Assembly (NCBI GenBank): GCA_964384995.1
Contig: CAYLMJ010000003.1
Coordinates: forward strand, 25,007-89,006
Length of the DNA stretch: 64,000 nucleotides
Direction of reading: 5' to 3'
From: an uncultured archaeon
Lineage (GTDB): Archaea; Thermoplasmatota; Poseidoniia; MGIII; CAYLMJ01
Numbering within the stretch: position 1 is the stretch's first letter; the number at the start of each line of letters is the position of its first letter. This document shows positions 5,074 through 62,583 of the stretch, in pieces. The notes beneath the pieces are model-generated. The model saw only the letters and a list, made by a program, of their open reading frames with translations. It was not told where the DNA came from and searched no databases. The position numbers and the translations under genes are program-made.

Positions 5074-5111
5074 GGCTATACCTGGTGTTGTTCTGTCAAG
5101 GCCAGTTCGGG

Positions 5112-5122: not shown

Positions 5123-5177
5123 ACCTTTGTCCATTTTAGGGCCCAAAATCCAGATATCGACCAATCGCGGGTTCAGG

Positions 5178-11990: not shown

Positions 11991-12092
11991 CCCCTCCCTC
12001 CCAGTATAGGTATGTATTGTGTCCCCAACAGCTATATCAAACCTGCAAATTGCCAGGAGCGTCAGCTGTCTTTGCAATACCGGGTGTACAAC

Positions 12093-16130: not shown

Positions 16131-16394
16131 GGGGTAAACCTCGTCGAGCCACCTTATCGTCGGTATTAAAGCGCCACGACCTGATGCTCAAGAGTGATAA
16201 GGATAGGTGATGGGGCAGAAATGGGAAATTTTAGTGATAACTGGCTTTATTGAGATTGCAGTTCGAGTATTGATGGAATGGTAGGTGTTGGATTTCAAAC
16301 CCACATCAATCCCATTCGAATACTAATTGACCTCCCGAGCGAAGCGAGGGGGGTCGAGAGTTTTTGAAGCTATATTTTTTCCAAAAAGATAGAG

Positions 16395-16469
16395 TAGCGG
16401 GGGGTGGATTTGAACCACCGATCTCCGGGTTATGAGCCCGACGGGATGTCCTAGCTACCCCACCCCGCT
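16395..16469 (-). tRNA. Initiator tRNA-Met (anticodon CAT), archaeal type
   Basis: Reverse complement reads AGCGGGG-TG-...-TCGGG-CTCATAA-CCCGG-...-GGTGG-TTCAAAT-CCACC-CCCCGCT-A. It has an A1:U72 pair and three consecutive G:C pairs at the base of the anticodon stem. A TTTTTATGG-like box lies about 35-40 nt upstream on the coding strand. Confidence 0.85.
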
Positions 16470-28802: not shown

Positions 28803-28906
28803 GGGCTTCCAGCGGCAAGGACTATTAAAGTCCAATTAACGACCCTTTACCAAAAGCTCTATATCAAGCATCCAACTTAATTAGGGATTAACCGTGGAGG
28901 ACCTCC

Positions 28907-32185: not shown

Positions 32186-32230
32186 GCAGAACCGGAGCCA
32201 TCATCGGTCGTCAGACGGCCAGTGAAGCAA

Positions 32231-38032: not shown

Positions 38033-38122
38033 AACCCTTCCTCTCGTCATTCCTACCTTCATTCGTCAATATTCATCGACGAAGCCCTTATTAGGCCAAT
38101 AGCCCAAAGCTGCTTGACCCCC

Positions 38123-41100
38123 ATGCAGACTCGTTCTCACTCCTCGGCGGTGTTCACCGCCCTGCTGGCAACCTTGCTGGCAGCCTTTGTGGGCCTGCTG
38201 ATATTCACCCCTCCCGCCGCGGCCGCGCCCTCCACGGGCGAGGTCCAGGTGGCGGTCATCCTGGCCAACTTCTCGGACATGGATTTCGAGGAGGAGCACA
38301 ACGTGAGCTACTTCGAGGCCCTCAGCTTCAACCTCACGGGTCCTTCGTTCAGGAACTACTACCTGGAGGCCTCGTACGGCAACCTGAACCTGACGGGGGT
38401 CGTGGTCGAGGTCAACCTGTCCGAGAGCCGCGAGTACTACTCCACACGGGGCTTGCAGTTCATCCGGGATTCGGCAGATGAGGCCGACGATGACATCGAT
38501 TACACCGACATCGACGCCATCATCGCTGTCCATCCCGGTGCCGGTGGCGAGAGCTCGGGGGACAGCACCGACCTCTGGTCGGTCCATTACTCGGGCACCT
38601 CCATCTCCACCGATGAGCGTCCCTTCAGCGAGGCCTCCATCATCCCCGAGTACGAGCAGTCCAACGGCCAGCAACCGCCCCTGGGAGTGATGGTCCACGA
38701 GTTCGGCCACGAGCTCCACCTTCCCGACCTCTACGACACCGATGACAGCTCAGAGGGCATCGGCAGCTGGGGCGTCATGGCCGCCGGCTCCTGGAACGAC
38801 TACGGACGGACCCCGGGCCATCCCAGCGCCTGGTGCAAGATCGAGCTGGGCTGGGTGACCCCCATCGTGGTCACCGAGGACACCCTGAACGTCATCCTGG
38901 ACCCCTGGACCGAGGACGATACGCTCTACAAACTACCCATCCCGGCCAACGAGAGCGACTCGGACGAGTACTTCCTGCTCACCAACCGCCAGCTTCAGGA
39001 TTACGACGAGCACTTGCCCGGCGCCGGCCTGCTCATCTGGCACATCGACGACAGTCGCTCCAACAACCGGGACGAGAACCACAAGCTGGTGGACCTGGAG
39101 GAGGCCGACGGTCGCAACGACCTGGACAAGCCCCGCGGCGGAGGTGGCAACCGGGGCGACGCCGACGACCCCTGGACCGGCGATGAGGGCTCCTTCACCC
39201 AGACCTCGAGCCCCAACTCCACCGCCTACGACGGCTCCGACAGCGGCTGGCGCATCACCAACATCGCCCTGGACGGCGACCAGGTCAGCTTCGATATCCG
39301 GCTCTTCATGCCTCCTGTGGCCATTGCCGATGCCGAGAAGGGTGTTGTGCTCCCTGGCGAGGAGCTCAACTTCACCGGTTCGGACTCCTACGATGAGGAT
39401 GGCGATATCGTCACCTATCTGTGGGATTTCGGCGACGGCAACACCAGCGGCGAGGCCGACCCCTCCCACACCTACGATACCTACGGGACCTACATAGTCT
39501 CCCTGACGGTGACCGATGACGACGGGGTCAACTCCACCACCACCATCACCATCTACGTCAACGCCCCCCCGGTGCCGGTGATCGAGGTGGCCCGCCTGAC
39601 CCTGCTCACCGGAGAGAAACTCTTCTTCAACGGTACCGGTTCGTACGACCCTGACGGGACCATCTTCTTCTGGATGTGGAACTTCGACGATGGCGGCAGC
39701 TCCACCAAGGTGGCCCTCAACCACACCTTTGACGATGACGGCATCTACAACGTGACCCTGCAGGTGATGGATGACCGCAGCACCATCGCCACCGGCTATG
39801 TCCTCATCACCGTGCTCAACCGGGCGCCGGTGGCCAACTTCACGGCCGACCCGCTGGTGGGCGACACCACCACCCTCTTCACCTTCAATTTCACCGGTGG
39901 TGACAGCGACGGCACCATCGCCCTCTACCTCTGGGACTTTGGCGATGGGGCCAACTCCTCCACCGCCCCGGTCTCCCACATGTTCGACAGCTCGGGCAAC
40001 TACACCATCAACCTCACCATCTGGGATGACGATGGCGCCATGGACAACGCCTCGCTGAACATCACCATCACCAACGCCCCTCCCGTGGCGGTCGTTCCAG
40101 AACGGCCAGGTGTCTGGGCGGCGGGCGAGCCCCTCTCCCTGAACGGCTCGGGCAGCTACGACCCCGAGGATGCCCTGACCCTGCTGACCTGGGAGCTCTC
40201 CAACGGCCTGAACAGCACCCAGGGACTCTTCAACCTCACCCTGGAGCCCGGTCGCTACCAGGTCTGGTTCAATCTCACCGACGCCGGGGAAGCCACCACC
40301 GGGGTCAACTGGACCCTCGATGTGGAACCCCGACCCGTCGCGGTGCTGTATGCCCACCGGATAACAGCCGCCGTGGGGCAGATCGTCAGGTTCTCCAGCG
40401 ATGGCAGTGGCGGTGGCACCGACTGGTTCTGGGATCTTGGGGACGGGAGCAATTCAACCCTGCTTGAGAACACCAGCAGGATCTACTCCTCCACCGGCAA
40501 CTACACGGTGACCCTGCGCATCACCAGCCCCCTGGGTCTGGTCAGCAACCTCACCCCCGCCAGCCAGCAGATCATCCAGGTCTTCCCCAGGCCGGTGGCC
40601 AACCTCACCCTCCCCCTGGGCCCCTATCACCAGTGGCTGCCCCTGACCCTCAACGCCAGCGGGTCACAGTCCGGCTGGGGCGCCCTGGAGTACGGCTATC
40701 GCATCGACAACGGGACCTGGACCGGTTACAATTCCAACGCCACCCACACCCTCAACCCCAGCACCGGTGGGAACCACACCTTCAGCCTGCGGGTCCAGGA
40801 TGGCAACGATGTGGTGGACCAGACCAACAGCACCATCTACATCAACTGGGCCCCCGAGCTGAGCTGGTCGATGGAGCCCCTGAACCCCGAGGTGGGACAG
40901 CTGGTCAACCTGACCCTGAACCTCACCGACCGGGACGACAATGCCACCCAGTTCAGCCTCAACTGGAGCGAGGGCGCCCTGGTGAACCAGACCATCGACC
41001 TGCCGGCCAACCTGACCTTCAACCACACCTTCACCCAGGAGGGCGAGATCGAGGTGCGGGTGGTGCTGACCCTGGAGGGCGGTTCCCGACTCAGCTGGGT

Positions 41101-41605
41101 CTGGCCGCTGACCGTGGACCCCGAGTACGTGGAGCCCGAGGAGCCCGAGAACAGGACCACCGACCTGCGGGTGGGCAGTCTCACCGCCTTCTCCACCTCC
41201 GGTGGGAGTCCGGCCCCCGCTGACAACACCCGGCTGTCGGCCCTTGTTGCGTGGCTTCCCGAGACCGAGGACAACCGGACCTCCCTGGTGGTGGAGGTGG
41301 AGTTCACCCTGGATGGCAATTCCCTGGCCACTCGGACCATCACCCTGTCTCCGGACCAGGAGCAGTCGGTGAGCGTCTTCTGGACCGCTGTCAAGGGCAG
41401 TCATGTCCTGCTGGTGGAGATCGATCCCCAGGGGCACCACAACGATACCGAACTTGGCGACAACATGGGCACCTACAAGTTCTCGGTGGAGGAGCCAACC
41501 TCGGATGAGGGTGGCTTCCTGCCCGCCCTGGGCCTGCCCGGCCTGCTGATGGTCCTGGCGTTGGCTGTGGGGGTCATCCGGTCGAGGCGAGGGGTTCGGC
41601 GTTAG
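38123..41605 (+). CDS. Secreted M6-family (InhA-like) zinc metalloprotease with multiple PKD domains and a C-terminal TM anchor
   Basis: Signal peptide ...AVFTALLATLLAAFVGLLIFTPPAAAA. HExxH motif in VMVHEFGHELHLPDLYD. Repeated PKD-like units (YLWDFGDGNTSGEADPSHTYDTYGTY...). C-terminal ...GLPGLLMVLALAVGVIRSRRGVRR. Confidence 0.7.
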   Translation: MQTRSHSSAVFTALLATLLAAFVGLLIFTPPAAAAPSTGEVQVAVILANFSDMDFEEEHNVSYFEALSFNLTGPSFRNYYLEASYGNLNLTGVVVEVNLSESREYYSTRGLQFIRDSADEADDDIDYTDIDAIIAVHPGAGGESSGDSTDLWSVHYSGTSISTDERPFSEASIIPEYEQSNGQQPPLGVMVHEFGHELHLPDLYDTDDSSEGIGSWGVMAAGSWNDYGRTPGHPSAWCKIELGWVTPIVVTEDTLNVILDPWTEDDTLYKLPIPANESDSDEYFLLTNRQLQDYDEHLPGAGLLIWHIDDSRSNNRDENHKLVDLEEADGRNDLDKPRGGGGNRGDADDPWTGDEGSFTQTSSPNSTAYDGSDSGWRITNIALDGDQVSFDIRLFMPPVAIADAEKGVVLPGEELNFTGSDSYDEDGDIVTYLWDFGDGNTSGEADPSHTYDTYGTYIVSLTVTDDDGVNSTTTITIYVNAPPVPVIEVARLTLLTGEKLFFNGTGSYDPDGTIFFWMWNFDDGGSSTKVALNHTFDDDGIYNVTLQVMDDRSTIATGYVLITVLNRAPVANFTADPLVGDTTTLFTFNFTGGDSDGTIALYLWDFGDGANSSTAPVSHMFDSSGNYTINLTIWDDDGAMDNASLNITITNAPPVAVVPERPGVWAAGEPLSLNGSGSYDPEDALTLLTWELSNGLNSTQGLFNLTLEPGRYQVWFNLTDAGEATTGVNWTLDVEPRPVAVLYAHRITAAVGQIVRFSSDGSGGGTDWFWDLGDGSNSTLLENTSRIYSSTGNYTVTLRITSPLGLVSNLTPASQQIIQVFPRPVANLTLPLGPYHQWLPLTLNASGSQSGWGALEYGYRIDNGTWTGYNSNATHTLNPSTGGNHTFSLRVQDGNDVVDQTNSTIYINWAPELSWSMEPLNPEVGQLVNLTLNLTDRDDNATQFSLNWSEGALVNQTIDLPANLTFNHTFTQEGEIEVRVVLTLEGGSRLSWVWPLTVDPEYVEPEEPENRTTDLRVGSLTAFSTSGGSPAPADNTRLSALVAWLPETEDNRTSLVVEVEFTLDGNSLATRTITLSPDQEQSVSVFWTAVKGSHVLLVEIDPQGHHNDTELGDNMGTYKFSVEEPTSDEGGFLPALGLPGLLMVLALAVGVIRSRRGVRR

Positions 41606-41711
41606 GGCAAGGATGGGCCTCGTGCTCGGTCCTGTGCCTCCCTTCATATGACTTTCTCGAGTTCCTCCTTACATTGGGGTAACCATTAAGGCCCCGGTGG
41701 CGACTGGAGGG

Positions 41712-44700
41712 ATGGTGTCCCTGGCTCGGCGTTCCCTGCCCTCATTGCCCCTTTTAGGTTGCCTGATGGCGATCGCGGGGCTGACCTTCCTGTTCCTGCT
41801 GACGCTGTCCATGGTACCCTCAGCCTCGGCCGAGGCTCCCGATCTGATCAACATCGAGGCCATCGTGGGTGCTTCCAACGATGATGGGGACGAGCTGGTG
41901 AACGATCTGGTCTTCATCGCCCATCAGGAGGATCGGGAGATATCGGGCCTGGAGATCCGAATCTATCTGAATGACATCGAGATCGACTCGGCCATCACCG
42001 ATGATGAGGGTGGGGCGGGCTTTGCCAACCTTACCGACGGCAACTACTCCTGGCGCGCCTTCCAGTTAGACCAACAGCTGACCTACGAAGGTGGCAACTG
42101 CATTGTCAACTTCGCAGGGGACCGGGGCACCAGCACCTATCTCATGGATATCGACGATGACGGTGCCCACGACGATCTGTTCCTCATGATCCCCAATGGC
42201 ACCGGGGAGGGCCAGCCCGAGGGCTACTACGAGATCTACAACGAGACCAGCGACCTTGTGGCCTCGGGACACACCAACCTCTCGGCCGAACCCTTCGGCA
42301 ACATCTCAATCGTGCTCGACCTGGTACCGGCCAACTACACCTTCTATCTCTGGACCAACGAGAGTGGCACTCTCCTGCAGAACGGCTCCTTCAACACCCA
42401 TCCTGCACCTGTCGATTCCAACGAATGGTTCGCCGACTGGTTCTACGAATACGAGGACCGCGACAGCGATGGACGGGACGACTGGGTCATGGTCCACTAC
42501 GACGTGGACACCGGCGACCCCCAGATGACGGTGAACGTCACCTGGGTCATCGAGAACTCCACCGGCGTCGAGCTGGTCAACGTCACCGACCCCTTCACCG
42601 CCCCCAACGGGACCGTGGACCATCGCAACCTCTCCTGGCTCTGCTCGGCCGGCGATGACTACACGTTCCGCCTCCACCTGTTCGACGAGAACAACACCCT
42701 GGAGGATTCCAACTCATCCCTGGCGACCCTGGACCTCTACAGCCTGCCTCCGCTGGTGAACTTCAGCTCGCCCCAGCCGGACACCATGGTGTGGGGGGTG
42801 GTGAACCTGACAGGCAACGCCTCGGACCCCGATGGCGACTCCACCCTGGAACTGGTCGAGGTGCGCTACCAGGGAGGCGACTGGGCCAATGCCACTCCCC
42901 TGGGCGGCGACTGGACCCTCTGGTACCACCACTGGGATACCGGGAGCCTGCCCGAGGGCCTCTACGACCTGGAGGCCAGGGCCTACGATGGCGACAACCA
43001 CTCCCTGGTGGCCCGAATGAGCCTGGAGGTCAACCACAACGACCCGCCCGCGGTGACCGTGGACAGCCCCCAGGAGGGGGCCCAGGTCCGGGGCAACATC
43101 ACCATCCGCGGTCATGCCATGGACCCCGACGGCGCGGCCAATCTGTCGGCGATCCAGGTCAGCCTGGACGACATCGGCTTCGATCAACCCTGGTTCGTCC
43201 CCGGAGCCTCCAGCTGGAACCTCAAGTGGAACACCAGCCATGCCTCCAACGGCGACCATACCCTCTACTTCAGGGCCCTTGACCACGGTGGACTCCACTC
43301 ACCGGTGGTCCAGGTCAACTTCACCATCCTGGCCAACCAGGCCCCCTCCATCGAGGTCCAGAGTCCCGAGATGCTGGTGAAACCCCAGGACTGGCTGGTG
43401 GACATAGCCTGGGAGGCCCAGGATCCGGAGGGTGACGACATGACCGTCAAACTGAGCGTGGAGCCGGTGGGCGAGCCCGAGGAGCGCGTGACCATTGCCA
43501 CCGGTCTGCCGGCCAGCGGGACCCACACCTGGAACTGCTCGGGCTTCGAGGTCGGGATATACCGCATCTGGGGCCGGGTGACCGATTCCTTCGGGGACCA
43601 CGATTCCGACTCGCCCAGCGGCAGGGTGGATGTGCCCAAGGTTGTGGTCTACTTCCTGAACCCCGCTCCCGCCGGCGACATCGCCGATGAGCTCTACCGG
43701 GTGAGATGGGTGGTGGATGGCTACGACGGCTCCCGCACCACCGATGTCTTCCTGGACAACGACACCGACGCAGAGAACGAGGGCGCCGTGACCCTGGTCA
43801 ACCTCCAGAAGCAGACCAGCTTCGATTGGGACACCTCCCAGCTGGCCGAGGGGACCTACTACCTGCGACTCAACGTCACCGTGGATGTCCTCTTCCTGGT
43901 CTCGGTCTTCTCGGGTCCCCTGGAGGTGATCCACCAGGACCAGCCCCAGCAGCTGGCCAACCTCACCATCAGCCCCATCGAGCTGAAGGAGGGCACCAGC
44001 GTCGAGTTCTCCATTGAGGTGATCAACCCTGGTTCGGGTAGCCAGCGGATGAACATCACCTACGTGATGGACAGCGTCCTGCTGGCCCAGAAGGATCTCT
44101 TCGTCGACAAGAAGGATATGCAGAGGGACTACCTCTACTGGACGGCCACACCGGGCGAGCACACCCTCCAGGTCCGGGTCTACCGCTGGCACCACGACGG
44201 CTTCGACCAGGAGCTGGAGCTGACCTTCATCGTGGAGGGTACCGCCAAGCCGGCCTCGACCGATGAGGACAACTCGCCCTGGCCCATGATCCTCATCATC
44301 GCCCTGACCCTGGTCATCCTGGTGGGCGCTCTCCTGGTCACCCGGGTCATCCCGGTGGACGAGCTCCTGGAGGGCAGAGCGTACGGCGGGAGAGGACCGC
44401 CACCCTCGACCCGGTCGTTATCGAGACCGGGAACGCCACGCTCACCAGACCTGCCGCCTCATGCGGCCCCATCCTCACCATCACCCTCATCGCCCTCCTC
44501 ACCATCTGAACCATCCTCCCCCTCTTCACCTCCCCCCGATGAAAGCGACGTGGATTTTGGCGAGGACACAGATGCTCCCGACCCGGATGCCGGGAAGGAG
44601 GATGGCGAGATCGAGTTCGAGGATGAGGCCTCCCCCGATGTGGAGTTCGAGGATGACTTAGAGAAAAAGACCGGAACCGGGGAGGGGCCGGAGACAGGGG

Positions 44701-44864
44701 CCGATGAGGGTAGTGACACAGCGGCTCCCGCCGATGCTCCCGAACCTGACACCGGGAAGGATGATGGCGGGTCTGGCGAGAAGGCCAACGGCCCCGGCAA
44801 GGACAGGGTCGATGGAGCAGAAGCCGGGCAGGACGGCGACGCTGGACCATCCGAGAGGGATTGA
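41712..44864 (+). CDS. Surface protein with multiple bacterial-Ig-like domains, a TM anchor and an acidic Pro/Ser-rich cytoplasmic tail
   Basis: Signal peptide MVSLARRSLPSLPLLGCLMAIAGLTFLFLLTLSMVPSASA. Repeated Ig-like units carrying DPDG motifs. TM segment PMILIIALTLVILVGALLV, then SSPSPSSPSSPSEPSSPSSPPPDESDVDFGEDTD... Confidence 0.65.
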   Translation: MVSLARRSLPSLPLLGCLMAIAGLTFLFLLTLSMVPSASAEAPDLINIEAIVGASNDDGDELVNDLVFIAHQEDREISGLEIRIYLNDIEIDSAITDDEGGAGFANLTDGNYSWRAFQLDQQLTYEGGNCIVNFAGDRGTSTYLMDIDDDGAHDDLFLMIPNGTGEGQPEGYYEIYNETSDLVASGHTNLSAEPFGNISIVLDLVPANYTFYLWTNESGTLLQNGSFNTHPAPVDSNEWFADWFYEYEDRDSDGRDDWVMVHYDVDTGDPQMTVNVTWVIENSTGVELVNVTDPFTAPNGTVDHRNLSWLCSAGDDYTFRLHLFDENNTLEDSNSSLATLDLYSLPPLVNFSSPQPDTMVWGVVNLTGNASDPDGDSTLELVEVRYQGGDWANATPLGGDWTLWYHHWDTGSLPEGLYDLEARAYDGDNHSLVARMSLEVNHNDPPAVTVDSPQEGAQVRGNITIRGHAMDPDGAANLSAIQVSLDDIGFDQPWFVPGASSWNLKWNTSHASNGDHTLYFRALDHGGLHSPVVQVNFTILANQAPSIEVQSPEMLVKPQDWLVDIAWEAQDPEGDDMTVKLSVEPVGEPEERVTIATGLPASGTHTWNCSGFEVGIYRIWGRVTDSFGDHDSDSPSGRVDVPKVVVYFLNPAPAGDIADELYRVRWVVDGYDGSRTTDVFLDNDTDAENEGAVTLVNLQKQTSFDWDTSQLAEGTYYLRLNVTVDVLFLVSVFSGPLEVIHQDQPQQLANLTISPIELKEGTSVEFSIEVINPGSGSQRMNITYVMDSVLLAQKDLFVDKKDMQRDYLYWTATPGEHTLQVRVYRWHHDGFDQELELTFIVEGTAKPASTDEDNSPWPMILIIALTLVILVGALLVTRVIPVDELLEGRAYGGRGPPPSTRSLSRPGTPRSPDLPPHAAPSSPSPSSPSSPSEPSSPSSPPPDESDVDFGEDTDAPDPDAGKEDGEIEFEDEASPDVEFEDDLEKKTGTGEGPETGADEGSDTAAPADAPEPDTGKDDGGSGEKANGPGKDRVDGAEAGQDGDAGPSERD

Positions 44865-46783: not shown

Positions 46784-47485
46784 TTACTTTGCTGTCCTCA
46801 GCCACTTCACCAGTTCCTTCATGGCCCGGCCGCGGTGGCTGACCTGGTTCTTCTCCTCCATGGTCAGCTCGGCAAAGGTCTGCATGTCGCCAAAGGCCGT
46901 GTCGGGTTGCTCGTCGGGGATGAAGACCGGGTCGAAGCCGAAGCCGCCCTCGCCGCACGCCTCGTAGCCGATGGTCCCCTCGCAGGTGCCCTTGAACAGC
47001 CGGGTCTCGCCATCGTGCAGGAGCAGGCCGATGACCGTCTCGAACCGGGCGTTGCGCTTGGCATCCTCCTTCCACGGCAGCATCAGGCGGATCAGCCCCT
47101 CGGCGCCGGCGGCCATGAACAGGGCCTTGGAATAGACTCCGGGGTAGCCTCCCAGCGCTTCGACGAAAAGACCCGAATCCTCGATGACGATGCCCCTTCC
47201 CTCGGCCGGCAGCATCGGTTCATCGTGCTCCAGGGAGGGGGCCATGTCGAATCCCGCCCCGATGGTGCGCCGGGACCTCTTCCTGGATCTGGGTGACAAG
47301 GACTCGCCCAGGTGGGTCAATCCATAGCGCACCACGTTCTCCAGGCTGTCGGTCTGGATCTCGGGATAGTCCAGTTTCTTCTTCCGCACCTTGAGGCCCA
47401 GGGGTTCCAGGCGTTCCTTGAACTCGGCCAGCTTCCCCGAGTTGGAGGTCACGAAGTCCAGACGGCCGATCTTGGTCTTCTTCAT
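46784..47485 (-). CDS. Non-canonical purine NTP pyrophosphatase (HAM1/RdgB/ITPase family)
   Basis: MKKTKIGRLDFVTSNSGKLAEFKE...IVIEDSGLFVEALGGYPGVYS...GFGFDPVFIPDEQPDTAFGDMQ...EKNQVSHRGRA. The ATG at 47485 overlaps the upstream stop as ATGA. Confidence 0.75.
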   Translation of the reverse strand: MKKTKIGRLDFVTSNSGKLAEFKERLEPLGLKVRKKKLDYPEIQTDSLENVVRYGLTHLGESLSPRSRKRSRRTIGAGFDMAPSLEHDEPMLPAEGRGIVIEDSGLFVEALGGYPGVYSKALFMAAGAEGLIRLMLPWKEDAKRNARFETVIGLLLHDGETRLFKGTCEGTIGYEACGEGGFGFDPVFIPDEQPDTAFGDMQTFAELTMEEKNQVSHRGRAMKELVKWLRTAK

Positions 47486-49893
47486 CACATCAGCTCCAGT
47501 TCCTTGCCCAGCACTCCATCGATGTAAACCTTTCGGGCGGCGTTGGTTATCTTCTTGTCCATCAAGTTCAGCTCCCACACCGGCAGGTAGCCGGGGGTTA
47601 TCTGGGTGGGCGCCTCGCCGAAAAGGCGCTTGAAGAGGTTGCGCACCTTGATCTTGGAGAAGGAGTGCTCGTTGCCCTTGTTGTCCAGGGGTGTCAGCTC
47701 ATCGTGATGGATCTGGTCCCAGGCGAACTCCTTGAACTCAGGAAGGTCCTTGTAGTCCCAGGGTTGCTGGTCCACGTTGGTGATGAAGGCCAGCTCCTTG
47801 GGTTTGAAGGGCGGCATCACATCGGTCTCGATCATCAGGATCTGGCCGGTCTGTCCGTGGAAGGTCAGCGAGCCCTTGTGGTCGGCCTTCATCAGCCCCA
47901 GCCGCTTGGTCTGGATGTCGTAGTCGACGTGGTAGATGGGCAGGTAGAAGAGCTTGAGGTCCCCCACGGTCTCGCCCTTGAAGACGAAGAGCGTCGATTC
48001 CCGCTCCTTCTCGGCCAGATGGGTCACCTCCGACTGGGAGACGTTGAGCCTGGGCACCTTGACATAATCCTTGGGATCTCCCGGTGGCTTGGGCGTTTCC
48101 AGCCGTTGGGCCTCATCCTCATCATTGCCACCAAGCCCCGGCAGATGGGAGATGGCCTCCTTGAGCCCGTCCAGGGGTGACCCGGCCACCGTGTACGCCT
48201 CCTGCTCCACTTCGCTGATCGGTGTGGGTTCTGGTTCGAGTTCGGTGTCGGTCTCAGGCTCAGGGGCAGCCTCTTGCGATTTCCCGGTGGAACGGTCCGC
48301 CTCGGCCGGTTGGAGGGTTTCGGGCGCAACGGTCTCCACCTCGGGCACCTCAGGCACATCGGGCAGGTCGGAAAGTACCCCTACCTCAGGGGCGGCCTGT
48401 TCAGGTTTGGCTGGCTCCGCTCGGGTCTCCCCGGTCGACCTATCCATTTCCTGCTCTCTTTCTCGCACCCTTGCGCTTTCCTCCTTCACCCATTCTCTCG
48501 CCTTGGCTCCCTTTTCGAACCTGGCGAAATGCTCCCGCACCGCAGAGGGCATCAGGCTTCGCAAGGCGTCCTCGTCCAGGGTCGAGTGCTGGGTCAACAG
48601 CCATCTGGCCTGCATCTGTTTGGCCCGGTCGAAGACATCGGGGCAGATGAGCAGGAAGTGGCCGGTGGTCAGGTTGGGGATGGAGGTCATGATGGACTCC
48701 ACCTCCTCGGGGGCCATGGCCTTCACCATGTGGGAGACCTTGGACAGGTCCTGCTTGGTCATCATCCGCCCCAGCGCCCAGGTATTGGCCTGGGCCATGG
48801 CCTTGTAATCGATGTCGGCCGGGTTCTGGGTGCACATCAGACAGCTCACGCCGTACTTGCGCCCCTGCTTGAACAGCAGGGTCAGCATCTCCTTGGCCGG
48901 CGGGTTCCGGGGATGGGGCGGCAGGTAGGAGGAGACCTCGTCGATGTAGAAGACCAGCTGGACCCGTTCCGAGGGGTTCTGGAGCATCCAGTTGTAGATC
49001 TCCCGGGCCACCATGGAGACGAAGAACTGCTTGTCCGACTCGGCGTTGAGGGTGTTCAGGTAGATGATGTTGATGGGCACCTTGTTGGCGTTGGCCGGGC
49101 TCAGGAAGGTCTCCATGTCCAAGGGCGCCCCGAAGTTGAACATCAGCTTCTTGAGGCCCACCGAGAACTGGCGCAGTTTCTTGGCGATGCTGGCCCGCTC
49201 TCTGGGGGTGATGAATGTCTCGCCCCCCTCCAGGCCCTCCTCCTTGGGGTCGGCCACGATGTCGGCAAAACGGGCGAAATCCTTGGTCTGGACCCCCGAG
49301 TCCCAGAGCTGTTCGATGAGCTGGTAGAGGAAGGCCGTGCAGCTCTTTCCATCGTCCGATTGCACGTCGTACCCCATCAGCTGGGTCAGCCCCTTGGCCA
49401 CCATGTCCACCGCCCGGATCCGCTCGTCCGGTGATAGCCGGTCGGGCGGGGGCAGGTGCAACGGGTCGATGGAGATGGGGATGCCCTTGGAGGAGGCGGG
49501 GGTGAAGATGCGGACCTCGGCCTTCTGGGTCAGGCTCACCAGCCGGGTGGGGTCACCGCCGTGGTCCTCGATGTCCTTGACCAGTCCTCCCAGGGCCAGG
49601 GAGGCCAGGTCGCCCTGGGGGTCGATGAGCACCGAGGGGATGTTGGCCATGGTGGCCTCCTCGATGAAGCACTTGGCCATCACCGTCTTGCCCGAGCCCG
49701 AGGCTCCCAGCACCGTGACATGGCGCTTCAGCACGTCCACAGGCAGCCTCACCGGGCCCTCCCGGGACCAGCCAATGAGCAGCTCGCCTTGGTCCATGGC
49801 AAGGGATGACCCGGCTGTTCTAAAAGGATTGTGAGCACCAGAGGAGGGCATTCCCATCGGCCCTGACCTCAAGCCTAGCATCAGCGATGTCAA
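47485..49893 (-). CDS. HerA/FtsK-like P-loop ATPase (DUF87 family) with a long acidic linker and an uncharacterised C-terminal domain
   Basis: Walker A VTVLGASGSGKT and Walker B QLVFYIDEVSS. An approximately 130-aa Glu/Pro-rich linker is followed by an approximately 200-aa C-terminal domain with no recognisable motif. Confidence 0.7.
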   Translation of the reverse strand: MTSLMLGLRSGPMGMPSSGAHNPFRTAGSSLAMDQGELLIGWSREGPVRLPVDVLKRHVTVLGASGSGKTVMAKCFIEEATMANIPSVLIDPQGDLASLALGGLVKDIEDHGGDPTRLVSLTQKAEVRIFTPASSKGIPISIDPLHLPPPDRLSPDERIRAVDMVAKGLTQLMGYDVQSDDGKSCTAFLYQLIEQLWDSGVQTKDFARFADIVADPKEEGLEGGETFITPRERASIAKKLRQFSVGLKKLMFNFGAPLDMETFLSPANANKVPINIIYLNTLNAESDKQFFVSMVAREIYNWMLQNPSERVQLVFYIDEVSSYLPPHPRNPPAKEMLTLLFKQGRKYGVSCLMCTQNPADIDYKAMAQANTWALGRMMTKQDLSKVSHMVKAMAPEEVESIMTSIPNLTTGHFLLICPDVFDRAKQMQARWLLTQHSTLDEDALRSLMPSAVREHFARFEKGAKAREWVKEESARVREREQEMDRSTGETRAEPAKPEQAAPEVGVLSDLPDVPEVPEVETVAPETLQPAEADRSTGKSQEAAPEPETDTELEPEPTPISEVEQEAYTVAGSPLDGLKEAISHLPGLGGNDEDEAQRLETPKPPGDPKDYVKVPRLNVSQSEVTHLAEKERESTLFVFKGETVGDLKLFYLPIYHVDYDIQTKRLGLMKADHKGSLTFHGQTGQILMIETDVMPPFKPKELAFITNVDQQPWDYKDLPEFKEFAWDQIHHDELTPLDNKGNEHSFSKIKVRNLFKRLFGEAPTQITPGYLPVWELNLMDKKITNAARKVYIDGVLGKELELM

Positions 49894-49996
49894 TGGGGCT
49901 CAAAAGCAGCGAAACATTACACCCGAAAAGCCTTTGAGAATTTGGATTATTAAATAATTTAAATCGTGTACAACAATGTTTATGGAGATTCTGGAA

Positions 49997-52166
49997 ATGA
50001 AATTGGCCATGACATTGGATCGGCATCAAACCAAGCGCCTGGCAGGACCTCTCACTTTTTTTTGTCATCATCATCCTGGCGGGCACCAGCATCTTCCACT
50101 ACAGCCAGCCGGCGGAGCTTCGTGATGGTCCTCACCCCATCGTGCAGGCGTCGTACACCATCGCCCAAACACCCGGCAAGCTCGAAAGTTCTTCCTTGAT
50201 GACACCTGGTGAGATAATCGATCAGCTGATAGGTCTGGGCAAGCATGTGGAGGAGGTACCACAGGAGAGGGAGGGACCGACCCTGCCCCCATTCCAGCGA
50301 CCCACCTTACCCTTCCTTGGCGGCTATCCGGTCATCCCCATCGACGATCCAGACCCAACAACGGGTTCACCCGTTACCGAGCCCTTTCCGACTCGCCATG
50401 ATAGCAACCTGAGCTATTTTGCCTCGTTCGCTGAGTTGGCCGAGTACGTGGATGAGTACAGCTACTATCCATATCGATGGGGTTACTACAACGAGTGCTA
50501 TTTCCTGGTCGATTTCGCTGTAGATTTAGATTCAGATGCCCTTTCAATGAACAGCTTCTCGGGCACCAACAATCAGGTCGTTGGAGTGGATGAGGTGGAC
50601 TCGGTCAAGACCGATGGGCGCTACCTTTACCTCCACAGTGGCGGCTCAATCTACATCATCAAGGCCTATCCCCATTCGGAAGCCCGCATCGTCTCCAAGA
50701 TCGAGAACCACGGCGGGAGCATCCAGGGCCTCTTCATCCATGACGACAGGCTTGTCATCCTCAAGTACTTGAGTCAACCGAGGACCATGCACTATGAGGA
50801 GCAGACCGAGGTCTTCGATGGGGATGTCTGGTACCAGGTGACCGATTCAAGGGTCTCCGAATGGACTTTGAACGAACCCCAGACCCAGGTGTTGATCTAT
50901 GACATCAACCGCAAGGCAAATCCGCGGCAACTTCATGACATGGTCATCCCCGGCAGTTACCAGGGCGCCCGTCTCATCGGCAACGACCTCTACCTAATCA
51001 CCACCCATCGGCTCTACCGCTACGATGACGAGGTGAACTGGCCGGTCATCACGGAGGACGGTCAAAGCCGCATCATCGACCACACTCAGATCGGTTATTT
51101 CGACGATTCTGTGGGCTCAAGCCAGCTGACCATGATCACCAGCCTGAGCGTTCAGCCCGGCATGGTCACCGACAGCAAGGCCGTGCTCTCCAACTCCACC
51201 AACCATATCTACGTCTCCCAGTCGGGCATCTACCTGGCCGGTGCCGACTATGGCTGGTACCGCCAGGATGGCAGCTTCATCCACAAGTTCACCATCGACG
51301 AGGGACAGGTGTCCTATGTTGGCATGGGCCTGGTCCCGGGCTGGATCGACAACCAGTTCGCCATGGACGAGCACAAGGGCCATCTGCGGGTGGCCACGAC
51401 CATCGGCTTTGTCTCCAAGTCCAATCCCACCTCCACCAACAACCTCTACATCCTTGATGGTACCATGACCACCGTGGGCAAGCTGGAGGGACTGGCGCCG
51501 GGCGAGCAGATCTACTCGGCCCGCTTCATGGGCGATCGCGGCTACATGGTCACCTTCAAGAAGGTCGACCCCTTCTTCGTCATCGACCTGTCCGATCCCA
51601 CCGACCCCACGATGCTGGGCTACCTCAAGATACCCGGCTATTCCGATTACATGCATCCCTACGATGAGAACCATGTCATCGGTCTGGGCAAGGACACGAT
51701 GGAGGCTTCCAGCGGCAACTTCGCCTGGTACCAGGGTCTCAAGCTATCGTTGTTCGATGTTACCGACGTGGCCCATCCCAAGGAGGTCTCCAAGCTCATC
51801 ATCGGCGATCGCGGCACCGAATCGGAAGCGCTCCATGACCACAGGGCCTTCCAGTTCTTTGGGGCTCACGACAAGATAGTCATTCCGGTCGACCTGTACG
51901 AGGTCCAGAACCCAAACGGGCGTGACAACCAGCATGGTGAGTTCGTCTGGCAGGGTGCCTATGTGATATCCCTTACCCTGGAGGATGGCTTCCAGATTTT
52001 CGGTCGAGTCTCGCACATCGGTACCAATGCTTCCCAGTATTCATACAATGACAGGATCCAGCGTTCACTCTACATCGAGGACGTGCTTTACACAATCTCA
52101 CCGGAGCAGGTGGCGCTCAACGATATCAACAACCTGAACCGCCTGGAGACCATCAAGCTGGAGTGA
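49997..52166 (+). CDS. Secreted protein with a C-terminal beta-propeller domain (archaeal COG4880-like); its N-terminus is interrupted by a frameshift at a T8 run
   Basis: The track ORF 50142..52166 carries beta-propeller-domain motifs (VDEVDSVKTDGRYLY..., ...LSLFDVTDVAHPKEVSKLIIGDRGTESEALHDHRAF). The ATG at 49997 encodes MKLAMTLDRHQTKRLAGPLTFF in the neighbouring frame. Deleting one T of the run at 50056-50063 joins it to ...VIIILAGTSIFHYSQP..., a signal anchor, and then to the track ORF. Confidence 0.65.
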
Positions 52167-58725: not shown

Positions 58726-61700
58726 ATGCCTTCCTCCAAGCAGTTAGTTTGTCTTGTATTAGCCATCGCCCTGACCCTGAGCTACCTGGCTCTGCCCACC
58801 AGCCAGGCCGATGGCGAGAACGCGACCATCAACGGGACCGTGCGCAACAGCGATACCACGCTCCCCATCGAGAATGTCACCGTCGATGCCTACGAACAGG
58901 ACGGTGGTGGCAATTACGAGAACGATACCAACGCCGCGGGCGCCTACACCATGGACGTGGTGGACGGCACCTATACCCTGCGAGCCTCGGAATGGCCCGA
59001 CTACTACATCTTCGAGCGCAACAACGTGAGGGTCAACGAGGGTCAGACCAGGACCGAGGACATCGACCTGATTCCCCACGGCGGCGAGAACTCGGGGATG
59101 GAGGGGACGGTCTACGATGCCGTCACCGGCGACCCCCTGGACGGGGTCTGGATGTACTACCGCGACGCCGACAATGAGACCCACTGGCTTGGCTTCACCA
59201 ACGGCACCGGCGACTACAACGAATCGATGCTCCCCGGATATTGGGACCTCGACGTGTCCAAGGACGGCTACCGCACCGTCAGGGACCATGGTATTCTCCT
59301 GGAGGATGGTAACTGGCTCTCAGGCGATCACTGGCTCTGGCCCGAGAACTCCACCCTGTACGGTCAGGTCACCGACAACGTCACCGGAGACCCCATCGAG
59401 GATGCCTTGATCTACGTCTATCATGGCGACCATGAGGACGATGATTTCTACGACAACCGCACTTACACCGATGACAACGGCGACTATCTCTTCAACCTCT
59501 CCGCCGGGTTCTACAACATGGAGGTCTACGGCCCCGACGGATACTACTCCAACGTGATGTTCCACGTCCCGACGATGACCCTGCCCAACATCGAGGTCGG
59601 CGTGGACCATGACCTGGAGATGGATTTCGCCCTGGATCCCATCAACTTCATGGGCAACATCACCGACAAGGATAGTGATCCCATAACCTTCCCGCCGGCC
59701 ATCATCATGGCCTTCAACATGGAGGGCTTGGCCTTTGGCGGCGATGATGACGGTGATGACGACGAGGGTTTCCCCGGTTTCATCGCCATTCCCGATGAGA
59801 ACGGCTCCTACGAGCTCCACTTGCCTGAGGGCGACTGGCTGGTCATCGCCATGGACTTCGCCCTCATGGAGGACCCCGACAACGCCACCTACGATGCCAA
59901 CCTCACCCGGGTGACCATCGAGGACGCCACCGAGATGAGCTATCACGACTTCACAATGTGGGACCTCAACTCCTCGGTCTCGGGCATCATCACCGATCCC
60001 GATGGACTGCCCCTGGAGAACGCCTCGGTACAGCTGTACAACAACCACACAGTGATGTTCGACGAGAGCAAGATAGTGTTCACCAACAGCGCCGGCGAGT
60101 ATCAGATCGAGGCGGGCCGGGGCGACTTCTTCCTCTTTGTCACATACTCCGAGGGCGAGGATGACAGCCCCTTCGACCCCGCACCCTACAAGACCATCAT
60201 CGATACCTTCACCCTGGGCGAGGAGGATGATCAGGTCAAGAATTACCAGATGGAGGACAGCGATCCCCAGGTCCAGTACCAGAACGCCACCATGGCCGAT
60301 GACTGGCAATCCATGAACACTTCCATCGAGATGATCATGGGCCTAAATCAGACCCAGTGGCTCAGGCTCTGGCTCGATGGTCTCATCGGCAACGGCGACT
60401 ACTACCTGAGCCAGGAGGAGATCGACCGGTTCAACGAGATCATGGACATGGGCGGCGGCGATGATGATGACGACGATGAGAGCCCCTTCAAGGTGGACGA
60501 TATCGAGTTCGTGGAACAGGGCGGGTTCAACGCGACCTTCACGAACGCCGTTGGCGCCTGGGATTCGGCCAACCCCATCAGCCTTAGCGGCAATGGGATC
60601 CTGGAGGCCGAGGAGGAGGTCAGCACCCGCACCATGCACTCCCTGGAGTTCAACGTGTCCTACCATACCGAGTCGGTGACCTTCCTTTACAACTTCACCT
60701 TCCCGGTGGTCTACACCCTGGACTGGAACTCATCCTCCGACAACGTGACCTTCGAGGGCCTCAATCCCATTGACATCATCGTCGTGCAGGACCCGGACCC
60801 CGATGACAACCAAAGGGACGAGACGGTCTGGATCGACATGCGCAAACCCAATGACCTGCCCACGGCGAACATCACCAACATCGACCCCAATCCGGGCACC
60901 GAGGGCCTGGAAGTGTTGTTCGAGGGCGAGGGCACGGATGAGGATGGTGACATCATCGCCTTTGAATGGTACATCGACGATGAGCTGGTCTCCAGCGAAC
61001 CCTCTTTCACCAACGATTCACTGGAGCCTGGCAACTACACCGTGAAGTTCCGGGTCCAGGATGACATGGAAGGCTGGTCCGAGTACGATACCGAGGACCT
61101 GGAGATCGAGGCCCTGCCCAACATCCCGCCCAAGGCCATCATCGACCAGCTTGCTCCCGACCACGCGCCCGAGGGACAGGATGTGAACTTCCAGGGCCAC
61201 GGCGAGGATGACGACGGCACCATCGAGGCCTTCGAGTGGTATCTTGACGATACCCTGCTGTCCGACCTGCAGTCCTTCATCCGCAACAACATCCCCGTGG
61301 GCAACTACACGGTCAGCTTCCGGGTCCAGGACGACGATGGAGTATGGTCCGAGAACGCCACCGCCGAACTGGAGATCATGGATGTCAATGACCCCCCCGA
61401 GGCCGACATCGATGACATCGAACCCAATCCGGCCTACCCCGGCAAGCTCATCACCTTCACCGGCTCGGGTACCGATGATGACGGTACCATCGAGGCCTAC
61501 GAATGGCAGATCGACGGCTGGGTGGCCTCGACCTCGGACACCTTCAGCCTGGACAATCTGACCATCGGGACCCACAACGTGCAATTCGCGGTCATGGACA
61601 ACAACGACACCTGGTCCGAACCGGTGTTCGATCAGGTGGAGATCAAGGGCAACGAGGAACCCTACGCCTCCATCGACAGCATCACCCCCAGCCCGCCCAA

Positions 61701-62583
61701 CTCCCTGGACACCATCACCCTCAACGGTTCAGGCACCGACTACGACGGCACCATCGTGTCCTATCAGTGGACCCTGGACAGCACCATCGTGGGCAGCAAG
61801 GCCGAGGTGGAGATCGGACCCCTCGACGCCGACACCTACACTGTCGGATTCAGGGTCAAGGATGACAACAACACCTGGTCCACCACGGTGACCGAGGCCC
61901 TGACGGTGGTGGCCACCAACCATCCACCAGAGGCCGTGATAGTCTCCATCACACCCCAGTACCAGGTTTCACCCGACACCTACATCATATTCATCGCTGA
62001 CGGATACGACAGTGACGGCTCGGTGGTCAACTACGAATGGTCCATCGATGGCACAGTGATCGATATCGGCACCGATGATGAGTACAGCACCGAGTTCAGC
62101 GAGGATGACCTGGCCGGCGGCAACCACACCGTGACCCTGCGGGTCAAGGACAACGAGGGAGCCTGGTCCGAACCGGTCGAGAGCTGGCTGGATGTCAAGG
62201 GGACCGGTGTGACCCCCCCGACCCTCGAGTGCATCCTGTCGGTGAATCCCACCTCGGCCAAGGTCCTGACCTCTATCTTGATCGACGCCTCGGCCTCCAC
62301 CGGGAACATCGTCAGCTACCACTACGATTTCGGCGATGGTGACACCAGGGGACCTGGGATGTATACCACCTCCAATCACCCCTATGACGAAGCCGGGACC
62401 TACACCATCACGGTGACGGTCACCGACGGGGACAACAACACCGACACCGCAACTGCCACAGTGGTCATCACCGCGGCCGATGATGGCGACGACGATGACG
62501 ATCCCGGTTTCGGTCTGATCGGCCTGATCAGCGCCCTGGTCCTGGTCAGCCTGGCCCGCCGACGCATCCGTCGCGGGAACTGA
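58726..62583 (+). CDS. Large PGF-CTERM-anchored surface (S-layer-like) glycoprotein with carboxypeptidase-regulatory-like and multiple PKD domains
   Basis: Signal peptide MPSSKQLVCLVLAIALTLSYLALPTSQA. Many N-x-S/T sequons and repeated PKD units (...FEWYIDDELVS...). The C-terminus ...DDDDDPGFGLIGLISALVLVSLARRRIRRGN is a PGF-CTERM archaeosortase sorting signal. Confidence 0.75.
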   Translation: MPSSKQLVCLVLAIALTLSYLALPTSQADGENATINGTVRNSDTTLPIENVTVDAYEQDGGGNYENDTNAAGAYTMDVVDGTYTLRASEWPDYYIFERNNVRVNEGQTRTEDIDLIPHGGENSGMEGTVYDAVTGDPLDGVWMYYRDADNETHWLGFTNGTGDYNESMLPGYWDLDVSKDGYRTVRDHGILLEDGNWLSGDHWLWPENSTLYGQVTDNVTGDPIEDALIYVYHGDHEDDDFYDNRTYTDDNGDYLFNLSAGFYNMEVYGPDGYYSNVMFHVPTMTLPNIEVGVDHDLEMDFALDPINFMGNITDKDSDPITFPPAIIMAFNMEGLAFGGDDDGDDDEGFPGFIAIPDENGSYELHLPEGDWLVIAMDFALMEDPDNATYDANLTRVTIEDATEMSYHDFTMWDLNSSVSGIITDPDGLPLENASVQLYNNHTVMFDESKIVFTNSAGEYQIEAGRGDFFLFVTYSEGEDDSPFDPAPYKTIIDTFTLGEEDDQVKNYQMEDSDPQVQYQNATMADDWQSMNTSIEMIMGLNQTQWLRLWLDGLIGNGDYYLSQEEIDRFNEIMDMGGGDDDDDDESPFKVDDIEFVEQGGFNATFTNAVGAWDSANPISLSGNGILEAEEEVSTRTMHSLEFNVSYHTESVTFLYNFTFPVVYTLDWNSSSDNVTFEGLNPIDIIVVQDPDPDDNQRDETVWIDMRKPNDLPTANITNIDPNPGTEGLEVLFEGEGTDEDGDIIAFEWYIDDELVSSEPSFTNDSLEPGNYTVKFRVQDDMEGWSEYDTEDLEIEALPNIPPKAIIDQLAPDHAPEGQDVNFQGHGEDDDGTIEAFEWYLDDTLLSDLQSFIRNNIPVGNYTVSFRVQDDDGVWSENATAELEIMDVNDPPEADIDDIEPNPAYPGKLITFTGSGTDDDGTIEAYEWQIDGWVASTSDTFSLDNLTIGTHNVQFAVMDNNDTWSEPVFDQVEIKGNEEPYASIDSITPSPPNSLDTITLNGSGTDYDGTIVSYQWTLDSTIVGSKAEVEIGPLDADTYTVGFRVKDDNNTWSTTVTEALTVVATNHPPEAVIVSITPQYQVSPDTYIIFIADGYDSDGSVVNYEWSIDGTVIDIGTDDEYSTEFSEDDLAGGNHTVTLRVKDNEGAWSEPVESWLDVKGTGVTPPTLECILSVNPTSAKVLTSILIDASASTGNIVSYHYDFGDGDTRGPGMYTTSNHPYDEAGTYTITVTVTDGDNNTDTATATVVITAADDGDDDDDPGFGLIGLISALVLVSLARRRIRRGN

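What the first reader, a model, noticed from the sequence alone, without database searches (positions are those of the whole stretch)
50056..50063. T8 homopolymer causes a +1 frameshift between a plausible start/signal-anchor and the beta-propeller protein ORF
The ATG at 49997 encodes MKLAMTLDRHQTKRLAGPLTFF up to the run of eight T at 50056-50063. With seven T the reading continues VIIILAGTSIFHYSQPAELRDGPHPIVQASYTIAQ..., a hydrophobic signal anchor, directly into the 674-aa beta-propeller ORF. As written, that ORF has only an internal GTG start at 50142 and no signal sequence. This is either a homopolymer sequencing error or a slippage-prone phase-variable tract switching a secreted protein on and off.
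Basis: seen in the sequence. Interest (0 to 1): 0.55.

Follow-up and report, generated by a model that had tools for sequence, protein, structure and literature searches.

The report
Real one-base frameshift in archaeal surface-protein gene
One extra T in a run of T's cuts the membrane-anchor start off an otherwise intact archaeal surface beta-propeller gene; it is real DNA rather than a sequencing error, and is most likely an ordinary young knock-out mutation rather than an on/off switch.

Summary
T8 lies at 50056-50063. An ATG-started frame (49997, or more likely 50009) stops at 50125. The PF09826 beta-propeller frame is open from 50013 to 52166, and its first canonical start is GTG 50142. 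Removing one T fuses the two frames into a protein with a typical N-terminal signal anchor.

The only close orthologue (55% identity, same gene neighbourhood) is uninterrupted. It aligns on both sides of the T run, and the window has exactly one extra base. All 80 family loci that could be judged keep the anchor.

A sequencing error is excluded. Six separately assembled contigs from several samples, representing three haplotypes, all carry T8. No full-length version exists among about 15 billion public proteins. So there is no sign of tract-length variation, and phase variation has no support. The T run is absent from the orthologue, so this is not a conserved recoding site.

Best reading: a recent T7-to-T8 replication-slippage insertion, fixed in one archaeal population from low-oxygen seawater. 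It abolishes export or anchoring. Rare RNA-polymerase or +1 ribosomal slippage (UUU-UGU, where UGU is the second-rarest codon) could rescue a few per cent. This is ordinary and of low interest.

The parts
49938..49988 (+). Conserved promoter / 5' block with a TATA-like TTAAATAATTTAAAT (49950-49964) and ATGTTTATGGAGA
   Evidence: About 85% identical to the orthologue locus L001, although the proteins are only 55% identical. The promoter role is inferred from its archaeal TATA-like sequence and its position.
50009..50011 (+). Probable ancestral start codon ATG (MTLDR...). The in-frame ATGs at 49976, 49982 and 49997 are alternatives.
   Evidence: It aligns base-for-base and residue-for-residue with the start of orthologue P0002 (MSSDR...).
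50009..50125 (+). Frame-0 reading as written: a truncated 38-aa product (42 aa from ATG 49997), MTLDRHQTKRLAGPLTFFCHHHPGGHQHLPLQPAGGAS, ending at TGA 50123-50125
   Evidence: Its maximum hydropathy is -0.23, so it has no membrane segment.
50056..50063 (+). T8 homopolymer, one base longer than the in-frame length. It is the site of the frameshift and also the only plausible slippage site.
   Evidence: It is identical in L007-L012. The window has exactly one extra base relative to the orthologue between the start codon and GTCATC.
50045..50096 (+). Signal-anchor (transmembrane) segment GPLTFFVIIILAGTSIF, split by the frameshift
   Evidence: Kyte-Doolittle 17-aa mean of 2.08 in the repaired protein, against 0.86 for the GTG-start protein. 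It aligns with IISFWVIVILFCTGV of P0002.
50013..52166 (+). Open frame of the beta-propeller protein. The first canonical start is GTG 50142 (JGI gene call). The next ATG, at 50199, was used by other gene callers.
50556..52133 (+). PF09826 Beta_propel domain, full length and undamaged
   Evidence: Pfam E=7.9e-155, matching profile positions 1-494 of 495.

Best explanation
This is a genuine, heritable single-T insertion (T7 to T8). It arose by replication slippage in the codons ACT TTT TTT that encode Thr-Phe-Phe at the start of the signal anchor of a membrane-anchored or secreted PF09826 beta-propeller protein of an uncultivated archaeon.

Ribosomes starting at ATG 50009 or 49997 run into the wrong frame and stop at 50125. 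They make a short peptide with no membrane segment. The propeller frame has no start codon upstream of its anchor, so at best an anchorless, non-exported protein could be made from GTG 50142 or ATG 50199.

The allele is therefore a loss-of-function allele, in effect a young pseudogene. It is fixed in the sampled population and too recent for the ORF to have decayed.

A small fraction of full-length protein may still be made. RNA polymerase could drop one U on the A8 template. Alternatively tRNA-Phe could slip +1 on UUU-U while the rare UGU codon waits in the A site. That would be leakage, not an evolved mechanism.

Shown: the frameshift, its reality in DNA, and the ancestral uninterrupted state. 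Inferred: loss of function and any leaky rescue.
For: - Reality in DNA: T8 is identical in six contigs from different assemblers and samples (JGI 3300009374 and 3300009128, Logan SRR8062320 and SRR8062321, ENA ERZ23499040 and ERZ23498668). These contigs carry three SNP haplotypes.
- Gene calls elsewhere: all 13 contigs that carry the protein were called with the truncated starts.
- Ancestral state: the syntenic orthologue P0002 (HerA, Beta_propel, type-2 IPP isomerase, polyprenyl synthase) has one uninterrupted ORF. Its N-terminus aligns on both sides of the T run: M1, D4, R5, R10 and A12 upstream, and F17, V19, I20, I22, L23 and T26 downstream. The DNA alignment shows exactly one extra base in the window.
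- Family context: 96 of 120 homologues have a strongly hydrophobic N-terminus. All 80 metagenomic family loci that could be judged keep it in the same ORF. An anchorless protein would therefore be aberrant.
- Not conserved: the orthologue has ATA TCC TTC TGG at this site and no T run.
- No stimulator: the RNA downstream has no unusual structure (z=0.06).
- Polymorphism: all three SNPs in the gene are nonsynonymous and none is synonymous. This is a weak hint of relaxed constraint.
- Literature: homonucleotide runs are indel hot spots, and the same runs allow partial bypass (PMC3812077).
Against: - The 718-codon frame and the Pfam match are completely intact. That is also what a functional recoded gene would look like.
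- ACT TTT TTT is a very unusual codon choice here. TTT is 3.4 per 1000 codons against 31.6 for TTC. ACT is 2.5 against 50.9 for ACC. None of the 27 Phe-Phe pairs in 23 genes is encoded TTT TTT. The tract could therefore be selected rather than accidental.
- The 0-frame codon after the run, UGU, is the second-rarest codon. This is the classic arrangement for +1 frameshifting.
- T8 is shared by three haplotypes, so it is not a one-off mutant.
- The promoter block is strongly conserved.
- The population is nearly clonal (99.96-100% identity). Persistence of the ORF is therefore uninformative in either direction.
Confidence: 0.58

Rival explanations
1. The frameshift is used rather than suffered: functional recoding. 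The T8 allele would routinely yield useful amounts of full-length protein. One route is transcriptional slippage, giving U7 or U10 mRNAs from the A8 template. The other is +1 ribosomal frameshifting, with tRNA-Phe re-pairing from UUU to UUU while the rare UGU codon stalls the A site. Either would set a low expression level for this surface protein.
For: - The slip site allows perfect re-pairing. The 0-frame A-site codon UGU is the second-rarest codon (1.23 per 1000), while the +1-frame codon GUC is abundant (30 per 1000).
- The codon choice that creates the run is improbable (about 4e-4 from the window's codon usage).
- The ORF and the promoter are intact.
- T8 is stable across three haplotypes.
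- Runs of 8 A are thought to be productive for slippage in some organisms, and a run of eight A in a frameshifted human apoB allele gives about 10% full-length product (PMC1088944).
- Frameshifts in homonucleotide repeats of up to 8 bases are bypassed to give functional protein (PMC3812077).
Against: - There is no conservation. The only orthologue has neither the frameshift nor a T run, and none of 80 family loci is split.
- No stimulatory RNA structure was found.
- The UUU-UGU arrangement follows automatically from any T8 followed by G.
- The first 23 codons have low GC3 overall (0.57, counted by hand, against 0.77 for the gene). This softens the codon-usage argument.
- Cellular +1 frameshifting and transcriptional slippage are barely documented in archaea (PMC5009743).
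- In archaea, U tracts of 4-7 or more act as termination signals (PMC2253867; PMC8716108). A U8 would terminate transcripts as well as slip.
Confidence: 0.2
2. The T tract is a phase-variable contingency locus. It would change length during replication at high frequency and switch the anchored surface protein on (T7 or T10) and off (T8 or T9) in subpopulations. The off state would be the majority where these samples were taken.
For: - The homopolymer lies in the 5' coding region of a predicted surface protein, the classic position for such a switch.
- The run is built from rare codons.
- The ORF is intact.
- The SNPs in the gene are all amino-acid changes, as might be expected of a surface protein under diversifying selection.
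Against: - All six inspected contigs, and all 13 gene calls from several samples and three haplotypes, show the same off length.
- No in-frame version exists among about 15 billion proteins.
- Eight A/T is short for a high-rate switch.
- The orthologue has no tract.
- Consensus assemblies cannot reveal minority lengths, so the test made here is weak.
Confidence: 0.12
3. The extra T is a sequencing or assembly artefact, and the organism really has T7.
For: Homopolymers are the most error-prone context. All the data come from what is probably one study site.
Against: - T8 is identical in contigs built by three pipelines from at least three or four libraries.
- Two of those contigs differ elsewhere by SNPs, so they are not copies of one assembly.
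- The in-frame T7 at 32409 was assembled without trouble.
Confidence: 0.04
4. In this lineage the protein is now made from GTG 50142 or ATG 50199 as a soluble cytoplasmic propeller with a new role. The upstream ATG frame would be only a leader or a short upstream ORF.
For: Gene callers chose these starts. The stop of the upstream frame (50125) lies 17 nt before the GTG, so re-initiation is conceivable.
Against: - The 26 codons between the T run and the GTG are still open and homologous to the orthologue's anchor.
- The whole family is anchored or secreted.
- A newly anchorless protein of an extracellular family is unlikely to work.
Confidence: 0.05

Closest known systems
Frameshift-disrupted genes at homopolymers that are partly rescued by polymerase or ribosome slippage (indel bypass in homonucleotide repeats, PMC3812077; a run of eight A in a frameshifted human apoB allele and the disrupted bacterial ORFs at 9A/9T discussed in PMC1088944)
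   Same: A one-base indel sits in an A/T run of about 8. The downstream ORF is intact. The same tract that caused the mutation can in principle restore the frame in a few per cent of transcripts or translations.
   Different: This case is in an uncultivated archaeon, where such slippage has not been measured. No expression data exist. The tract is also an archaeal-type oligo-U termination signal.
Programmed +1 ribosomal frameshift sites (bacterial prfB CUU-UGA-C, yeast Ty1 CUU-AGG-C; from my own knowledge and the review PMC5009743)
   Same: The P-site codon is slippery and can re-pair in the +1 frame. The 0-frame A-site codon is slow (UGU, the second-rarest codon), and the +1-frame codon is abundant.
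   Different: The site is not conserved in the orthologue, no stimulatory element was found, and no regulatory logic is apparent. The arrangement follows trivially from T8 followed by G.
Programmed transcriptional slippage (Thermus thermophilus dnaX A9, IS elements with A8-A9; PMC1088944)
   Same: The homopolymer length is close to that of the RNA:DNA hybrid, and two overlapping frames are joined at the run.
   Different: Those sites are conserved among homologues and are usually 9 or more bases long. This one is lineage-specific, is T8, and is in an archaeon.
Bacterial phase-variable contingency genes with homopolymeric tracts in the 5' coding region of surface proteins (from my own knowledge)
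   Same: The tract has the same position and sits in the same kind of gene, a surface or exported protein.
   Different: No length polymorphism is seen in any assembly. The tract is short. This mechanism is not established in archaea.
Archaeal oligo-T/U-tract transcription terminators (PMC2253867, PMC8716108)
   Same: A run of at least 5 T lies on the sense strand. The tRNA-Met gene in this same window is followed by T5.
   Different: This run lies about 50 nt inside a coding region rather than at a 3' end. An in-frame T7 is tolerated in another gene of the window.

Membership tests
PF09826 Beta_propel family (uncharacterized secreted proteins with a C-terminal beta-propeller) | Full-length match to the Pfam model above the gathering score | tested here: met
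   E=7.9e-155, 516.9 bits against a cut-off of 22.4, profile positions 1-494 of 495.
PF09826 Beta_propel family (uncharacterized secreted proteins with a C-terminal beta-propeller) | N-terminal signal peptide or anchor in the same ORF | tested here: not met
   As written, the anchor is split by T8. 96 of 120 homologues and all 80 family loci that could be judged have it. It is restored only if one T is removed.
Sequencing or assembly artefact | Not reproducible in independent data | tested here: not met
   T8 is present in six contigs from three pipelines and several samples, covering three haplotypes.
Frameshift pseudogene / loss-of-function allele | ORF interrupted relative to intact orthologues | tested here: met
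   There is one extra base relative to the syntenic orthologue, and homology lies on both sides of the shift.
Frameshift pseudogene / loss-of-function allele | Further decay or relaxed selection | tested here: inconclusive
   There are no further lesions. The gene has 3 nonsynonymous and 0 synonymous SNPs. The population is 99.96-100% identical, which gives too little divergence to test.
Phase-variable contingency locus | Tract-length polymorphism among cells, strains or samples | tested here: not met
   All consensus assemblies show T8 and no in-frame protein is known. Read-level heterogeneity cannot be tested with these tools.
Phase-variable contingency locus | Repeat in the 5' coding region or promoter of a surface-exposed product | tested here: met
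   The tract lies in the signal-anchor codons of a protein from a predicted secreted or anchored family.
Programmed +1 ribosomal frameshifting | Shift site conserved among orthologues | tested here: not met
   The orthologue has ATA TCC TTC TGG and a single ORF. None of 80 family loci is split.
Programmed +1 ribosomal frameshifting | Slippery P-site codon plus a slow 0-frame A-site codon | tested here: met
   UUU UGU, with UGU at 1.23 per 1000 codons (second rarest) and the +1-frame GUC at 30 per 1000.
Programmed +1 ribosomal frameshifting | Stimulatory element (structure or rRNA pairing) | tested here: not met
   The fold of 50040-50160 gives z=0.06 against shuffles.
Programmed transcriptional slippage | A/T run of about 9 or more (8 in some organisms), conserved among homologues | tested here: not met
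   The length of 8 is borderline (PMC1088944). The run is absent from the orthologue.
Programmed transcriptional slippage | Heterogeneous run length in mRNA | not testable with these tools
   No transcript data are available.
Archaeal oligo-U terminator | At least 4-5 consecutive T on the sense strand | tested here: met
   T8. Literature: PMC2253867 and PMC8716108.
Archaeal oligo-U terminator | Transcript 3' ends map to the tract | not testable with these tools
   This needs Term-seq or RNA-seq.

The most novel reading that the evidence does not exclude
The T tract is a selected slippery element in an uncultivated marine archaeon (probably Thermoplasmatota). It would govern production of an anchored surface beta-propeller protein in one of two ways: heritable length switching (phase variation), or RNA-polymerase or +1 ribosomal slippage, possibly combined with premature oligo-U termination. 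Either would be among the first homopolymer-based expression switches described for a cellular archaeal gene.
Probability: 0.15. Interest if true: 0.65.

Novelty: new member of a known kind. Interest (0 to 1): 0.22.

Why it matters
The main value is for annotation. The public gene calls (674 aa from GTG, 655 aa from ATG) describe an anchorless protein that almost certainly never existed as a functional entity. The locus should be annotated as a frameshifted gene with its ancestral start at 50009.

It also shows that homopolymer frameshifts in metagenome assemblies can be genuine population-level alleles rather than errors.

It would matter more only if reads or transcripts showed length heterogeneity. 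That would point to a contingency-type or slippage-based switch in a marine archaeon, a mechanism barely documented in Archaea.

Tried and rejected
- A scan of JGI metagenome contigs for the flanks with a variable gap, to catch T5-T12 variants, found nothing.
- A protein-based scan of the same collection returned only relatives of 43% identity or less. No intermediate relatives or tract variants could be recovered.
- A scan of GTDB species-representative genomes did not contain this species. The best hit was 40% identical, so the lineage could not be named that way.
- A homology search with adenosylhomocysteinase, run to get taxon names, was uninformative.
- Rfam found only the two tRNAs.
- No solved structure resembles the protein by sequence.
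- I looked for a non-canonical solution: an in-frame start upstream of the anchor in the propeller frame. There is no ATG, GTG or TTG between the stop at 50010 and 50142.
- I considered whether T runs are excluded from coding regions in this genome, which would mark T8 as a dedicated terminator. They are not strictly excluded. T5 runs, and one in-frame T7, occur inside genes.
- dN/dS analysis was abandoned. The population is nearly clonal, and the only orthologue is saturated at 55% amino-acid identity.

Full report
**1. The observation**

- Positions 50056-50063 are eight consecutive T.
- ATG 49997 opens a frame that reads MKLAMTLDRHQTKRLAGPLTFFCHHH... and ends at TGA 50123-50125. ATGs at 49976, 49982 and 50009 are in the same frame.
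- The 674-aa ORF 50142-52166 lies in the +1 frame. That frame is open back to 50013 but has no ATG, GTG or TTG before GTG 50142.
- Removing one T yields a continuous protein...LTFFVIIILAGTSIFHYSQPAELRDGPHPIVQASY....
- The protein matches Pfam PF09826 (Beta_propel) over the whole model, E=7.9e-155.
- T8 is the only A or T run of 8 or more in this 62% GC window. Shuffles expect 0.14 such runs, and 9 of 100 shuffles contain one.

**2. The organism**

- The tRNA-Met at 16394-16469 (minus strand) has an A1:U72 pair and the GGG/CCC anticodon stem of archaeal and eukaryotic initiator tRNAs. It has no encoded CCA, a TATA-like TTTTTATGG about 30 nt upstream, and a T5 run just downstream. That these features mark archaeal initiator tRNAs rests on my own knowledge.
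- The gene content fits an archaeon: type-2 IPP isomerase, an IdsA-like prenyl synthase and a HerA-like ATPase.
- The species is not among the GTDB representative genomes scanned.
- One source sample, SAMN10231904, is a marine oxygen-deficient water-column sample, probably from the Cariaco Basin. A Thermoplasmatota MAG was reported from it (PMC12220078). Whether this window belongs to that MAG is untested.

**3. The ancestral state**

- The closest relative is P0002 (710 aa, 55% identity, 99% coverage). It sits in the same neighbourhood: Ham1, HerA-like ATPase, Beta_propel, IPP isomerase, prenyl synthase.
- P0002 is one uninterrupted ORF starting MSSDRSFNSRVAPIISFWVIVILFCTG.
- The repaired window protein, started at ATG 50009 (MTLDRHQTKRLAGPLTFFVIIILAGT), aligns with it without gaps. 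Identities lie upstream of the T run (M1, D4, R5, R10, A12), within it (F17) and downstream of it (V19, I20, I22, L23, T26).
- At the DNA level the window has exactly one extra base between the aligned ATG and the shared GTCATC. The orthologue reads ATA TCC TTC TGG there and has no T run.
- The anchor is a family feature. 96 of 120 homologues have a strongly hydrophobic N-terminus. The repaired protein scores 2.08 on that measure, against 0.86 for the GTG-start protein.
- Of 84 family loci from genome and metagenome scans, 4 run off a contig end. All 80 others carry the hydrophobic segment in the same ORF as the propeller, once two apparent exceptions were inspected.

The window's gene therefore descends from an uninterrupted, anchored protein, and its split is unique in the family.

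**4. Is it an error?**

- The same protein occurs on 13 public contigs, always called with a truncated start.
- I read six of them: JGI 3300009374 and 3300009128, Logan SRR8062320 and SRR8062321, ENA ERZ23499040 and ERZ23498668. All have T8.
- They are 99.96-100% identical to the window. Two of them carry private SNPs, so at least three haplotypes share T8.
- No full-length version was found among the proteins searched.

A sequencing or assembly error is thus very unlikely. Equally, there is no sign of tract-length variation at the consensus level.

**5. What it does**

- As written, translation from the conserved start gives a peptide of 38 aa (42 aa from ATG 49997) with no hydrophobic segment.
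- The propeller could be made only from GTG 50142 or ATG 50199. It would then lack the anchor that every relative has.
- The simplest mechanism is a replication-slippage insertion in a T7 tract (ACT TTT TTT = Thr-Phe-Phe) that knocks out export. Homonucleotide runs are indel hot spots, with frequency rising about 2.5-fold per added base (PMC3812077).
- The near-clonal population explains why the 718-codon frame is still intact.
- All four SNPs in the 8 kb compared are nonsynonymous. Three fall in this gene: I>F at 52095, D>V at 51457 and T>P at 51609. This is a weak hint of relaxed constraint, with numbers too small for a test.

**6. Could the frameshift be used?**

Some features leave room for this.

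- The tract is built from rare codons. TTT is 3.4 per 1000 codons against 31.6 for TTC. ACT is 2.5 against 50.9 for ACC. None of the 27 Phe-Phe pairs in 23 genes is encoded TTT TTT.
- The 0-frame codon after the run, UGU, is the second-rarest codon, and the +1-frame codon GUC is common. That is the classic +1 frameshift arrangement.
- Runs of 8 A or T can support transcriptional slippage in some organisms (PMC1088944).
- Frameshifts in such runs are often partly bypassed (PMC3812077).

The arguments against are stronger.

- The site is not conserved.
- There is no RNA structure downstream (z=0.06).
- The UUU-UGU arrangement follows automatically from T8 followed by G.
- The first 23 codons have low GC3 overall (0.57 by hand count, against 0.77 for the gene). 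This softens the codon argument.
- Cellular recoding is barely documented in archaea (PMC5009743).
- In archaea, oligo-U tracts of about 4-7 residues are termination signals (PMC2253867; PMC8716108). T8 could therefore also cut transcripts short. However, an in-frame T7 (ILFFI) is tolerated in another gene of the window, at 32409, and T5 runs also occur inside genes.

**7. Verdict**

Sequencing error is rejected. Phase variation is unsupported but not excluded.
- Best explanation: a real, recently fixed T7-to-T8 frameshift allele, in effect a young pseudogene, with at most leaky rescue by slippage (confidence 0.58).
- Rivals: recoding that is actually used (0.20), phase variation (0.12), artefact (0.04), and a functional anchorless protein (0.05).
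- This is an ordinary kind of lesion. Its main value is in correcting the annotation.
- Read-level counts of the T run and transcript data would settle the remaining alternatives.

Noticed in passing
window 49938-49988; L001 about 5940-5990: The promoter / 5' block, including TTAAATAATTTAA and ATGTTTATGGAGA, is about 85% identical between the window and an orthologue whose protein is only 55% identical. In the orthologue this ATG opens an 11-codon upstream ORF whose TGA overlaps the main ATG (ATGA). In the window the same ATGs are in frame with the gene. This may be a leaderless start or a regulatory upstream ORF.
   Followed up: partly
window 32222-34009 (+): A 44% GC island sits in the 62% GC window. 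It encodes a 595-aa polytopic membrane protein with no Pfam hit, a GC3 of only 0.51 and an in-frame T7 (ILFFI) at 32409-32415. It may have been acquired horizontally.
   Followed up: partly
window 47952, 51457, 51609, 52095 (variants in L007 and L012): All four SNPs among the public copies of this 8-kb region change an amino acid. Three lie in the frameshifted beta-propeller gene and one in the HerA-like gene. None is synonymous.
   Followed up: partly
window 16394-16469 (-) and flanks: This is an archaeal-type initiator tRNA-Met (A1:U72, GGG/CCC anticodon stem). It has a TATA-like box about 30 nt upstream and a T5 terminator-like run 7 nt downstream. I used it to assign the window to Archaea.
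   Followed up: yes
window 3163-5139: Two long overlapping ORFs lie on opposite strands (3163-5073 minus, 636 aa; 3523-5139 plus, 538 aa, GC3 0.62). The plus-strand ORF has no Pfam hit. The minus-strand ORF was not scanned. Which one is the gene was not settled.
   Followed up: no
window 494-3349, 11973-15704, 25631-32059, 38114-44864, 58726-62583: The window is unusually dense in very large predicted surface proteins (about 770-1290 aa) with PKD, CarboxypepD_reg, Big_7 and CARDB domains.
   Followed up: no
window 47485-49893 (-): A HerA/DUF87-type ATPase is transcribed divergently from the beta-propeller gene. It has a long acidic, Pro/Glu-rich linker and a C-terminal extension. The pairing with the beta-propeller gene is conserved in the orthologue locus.
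   Followed up: no
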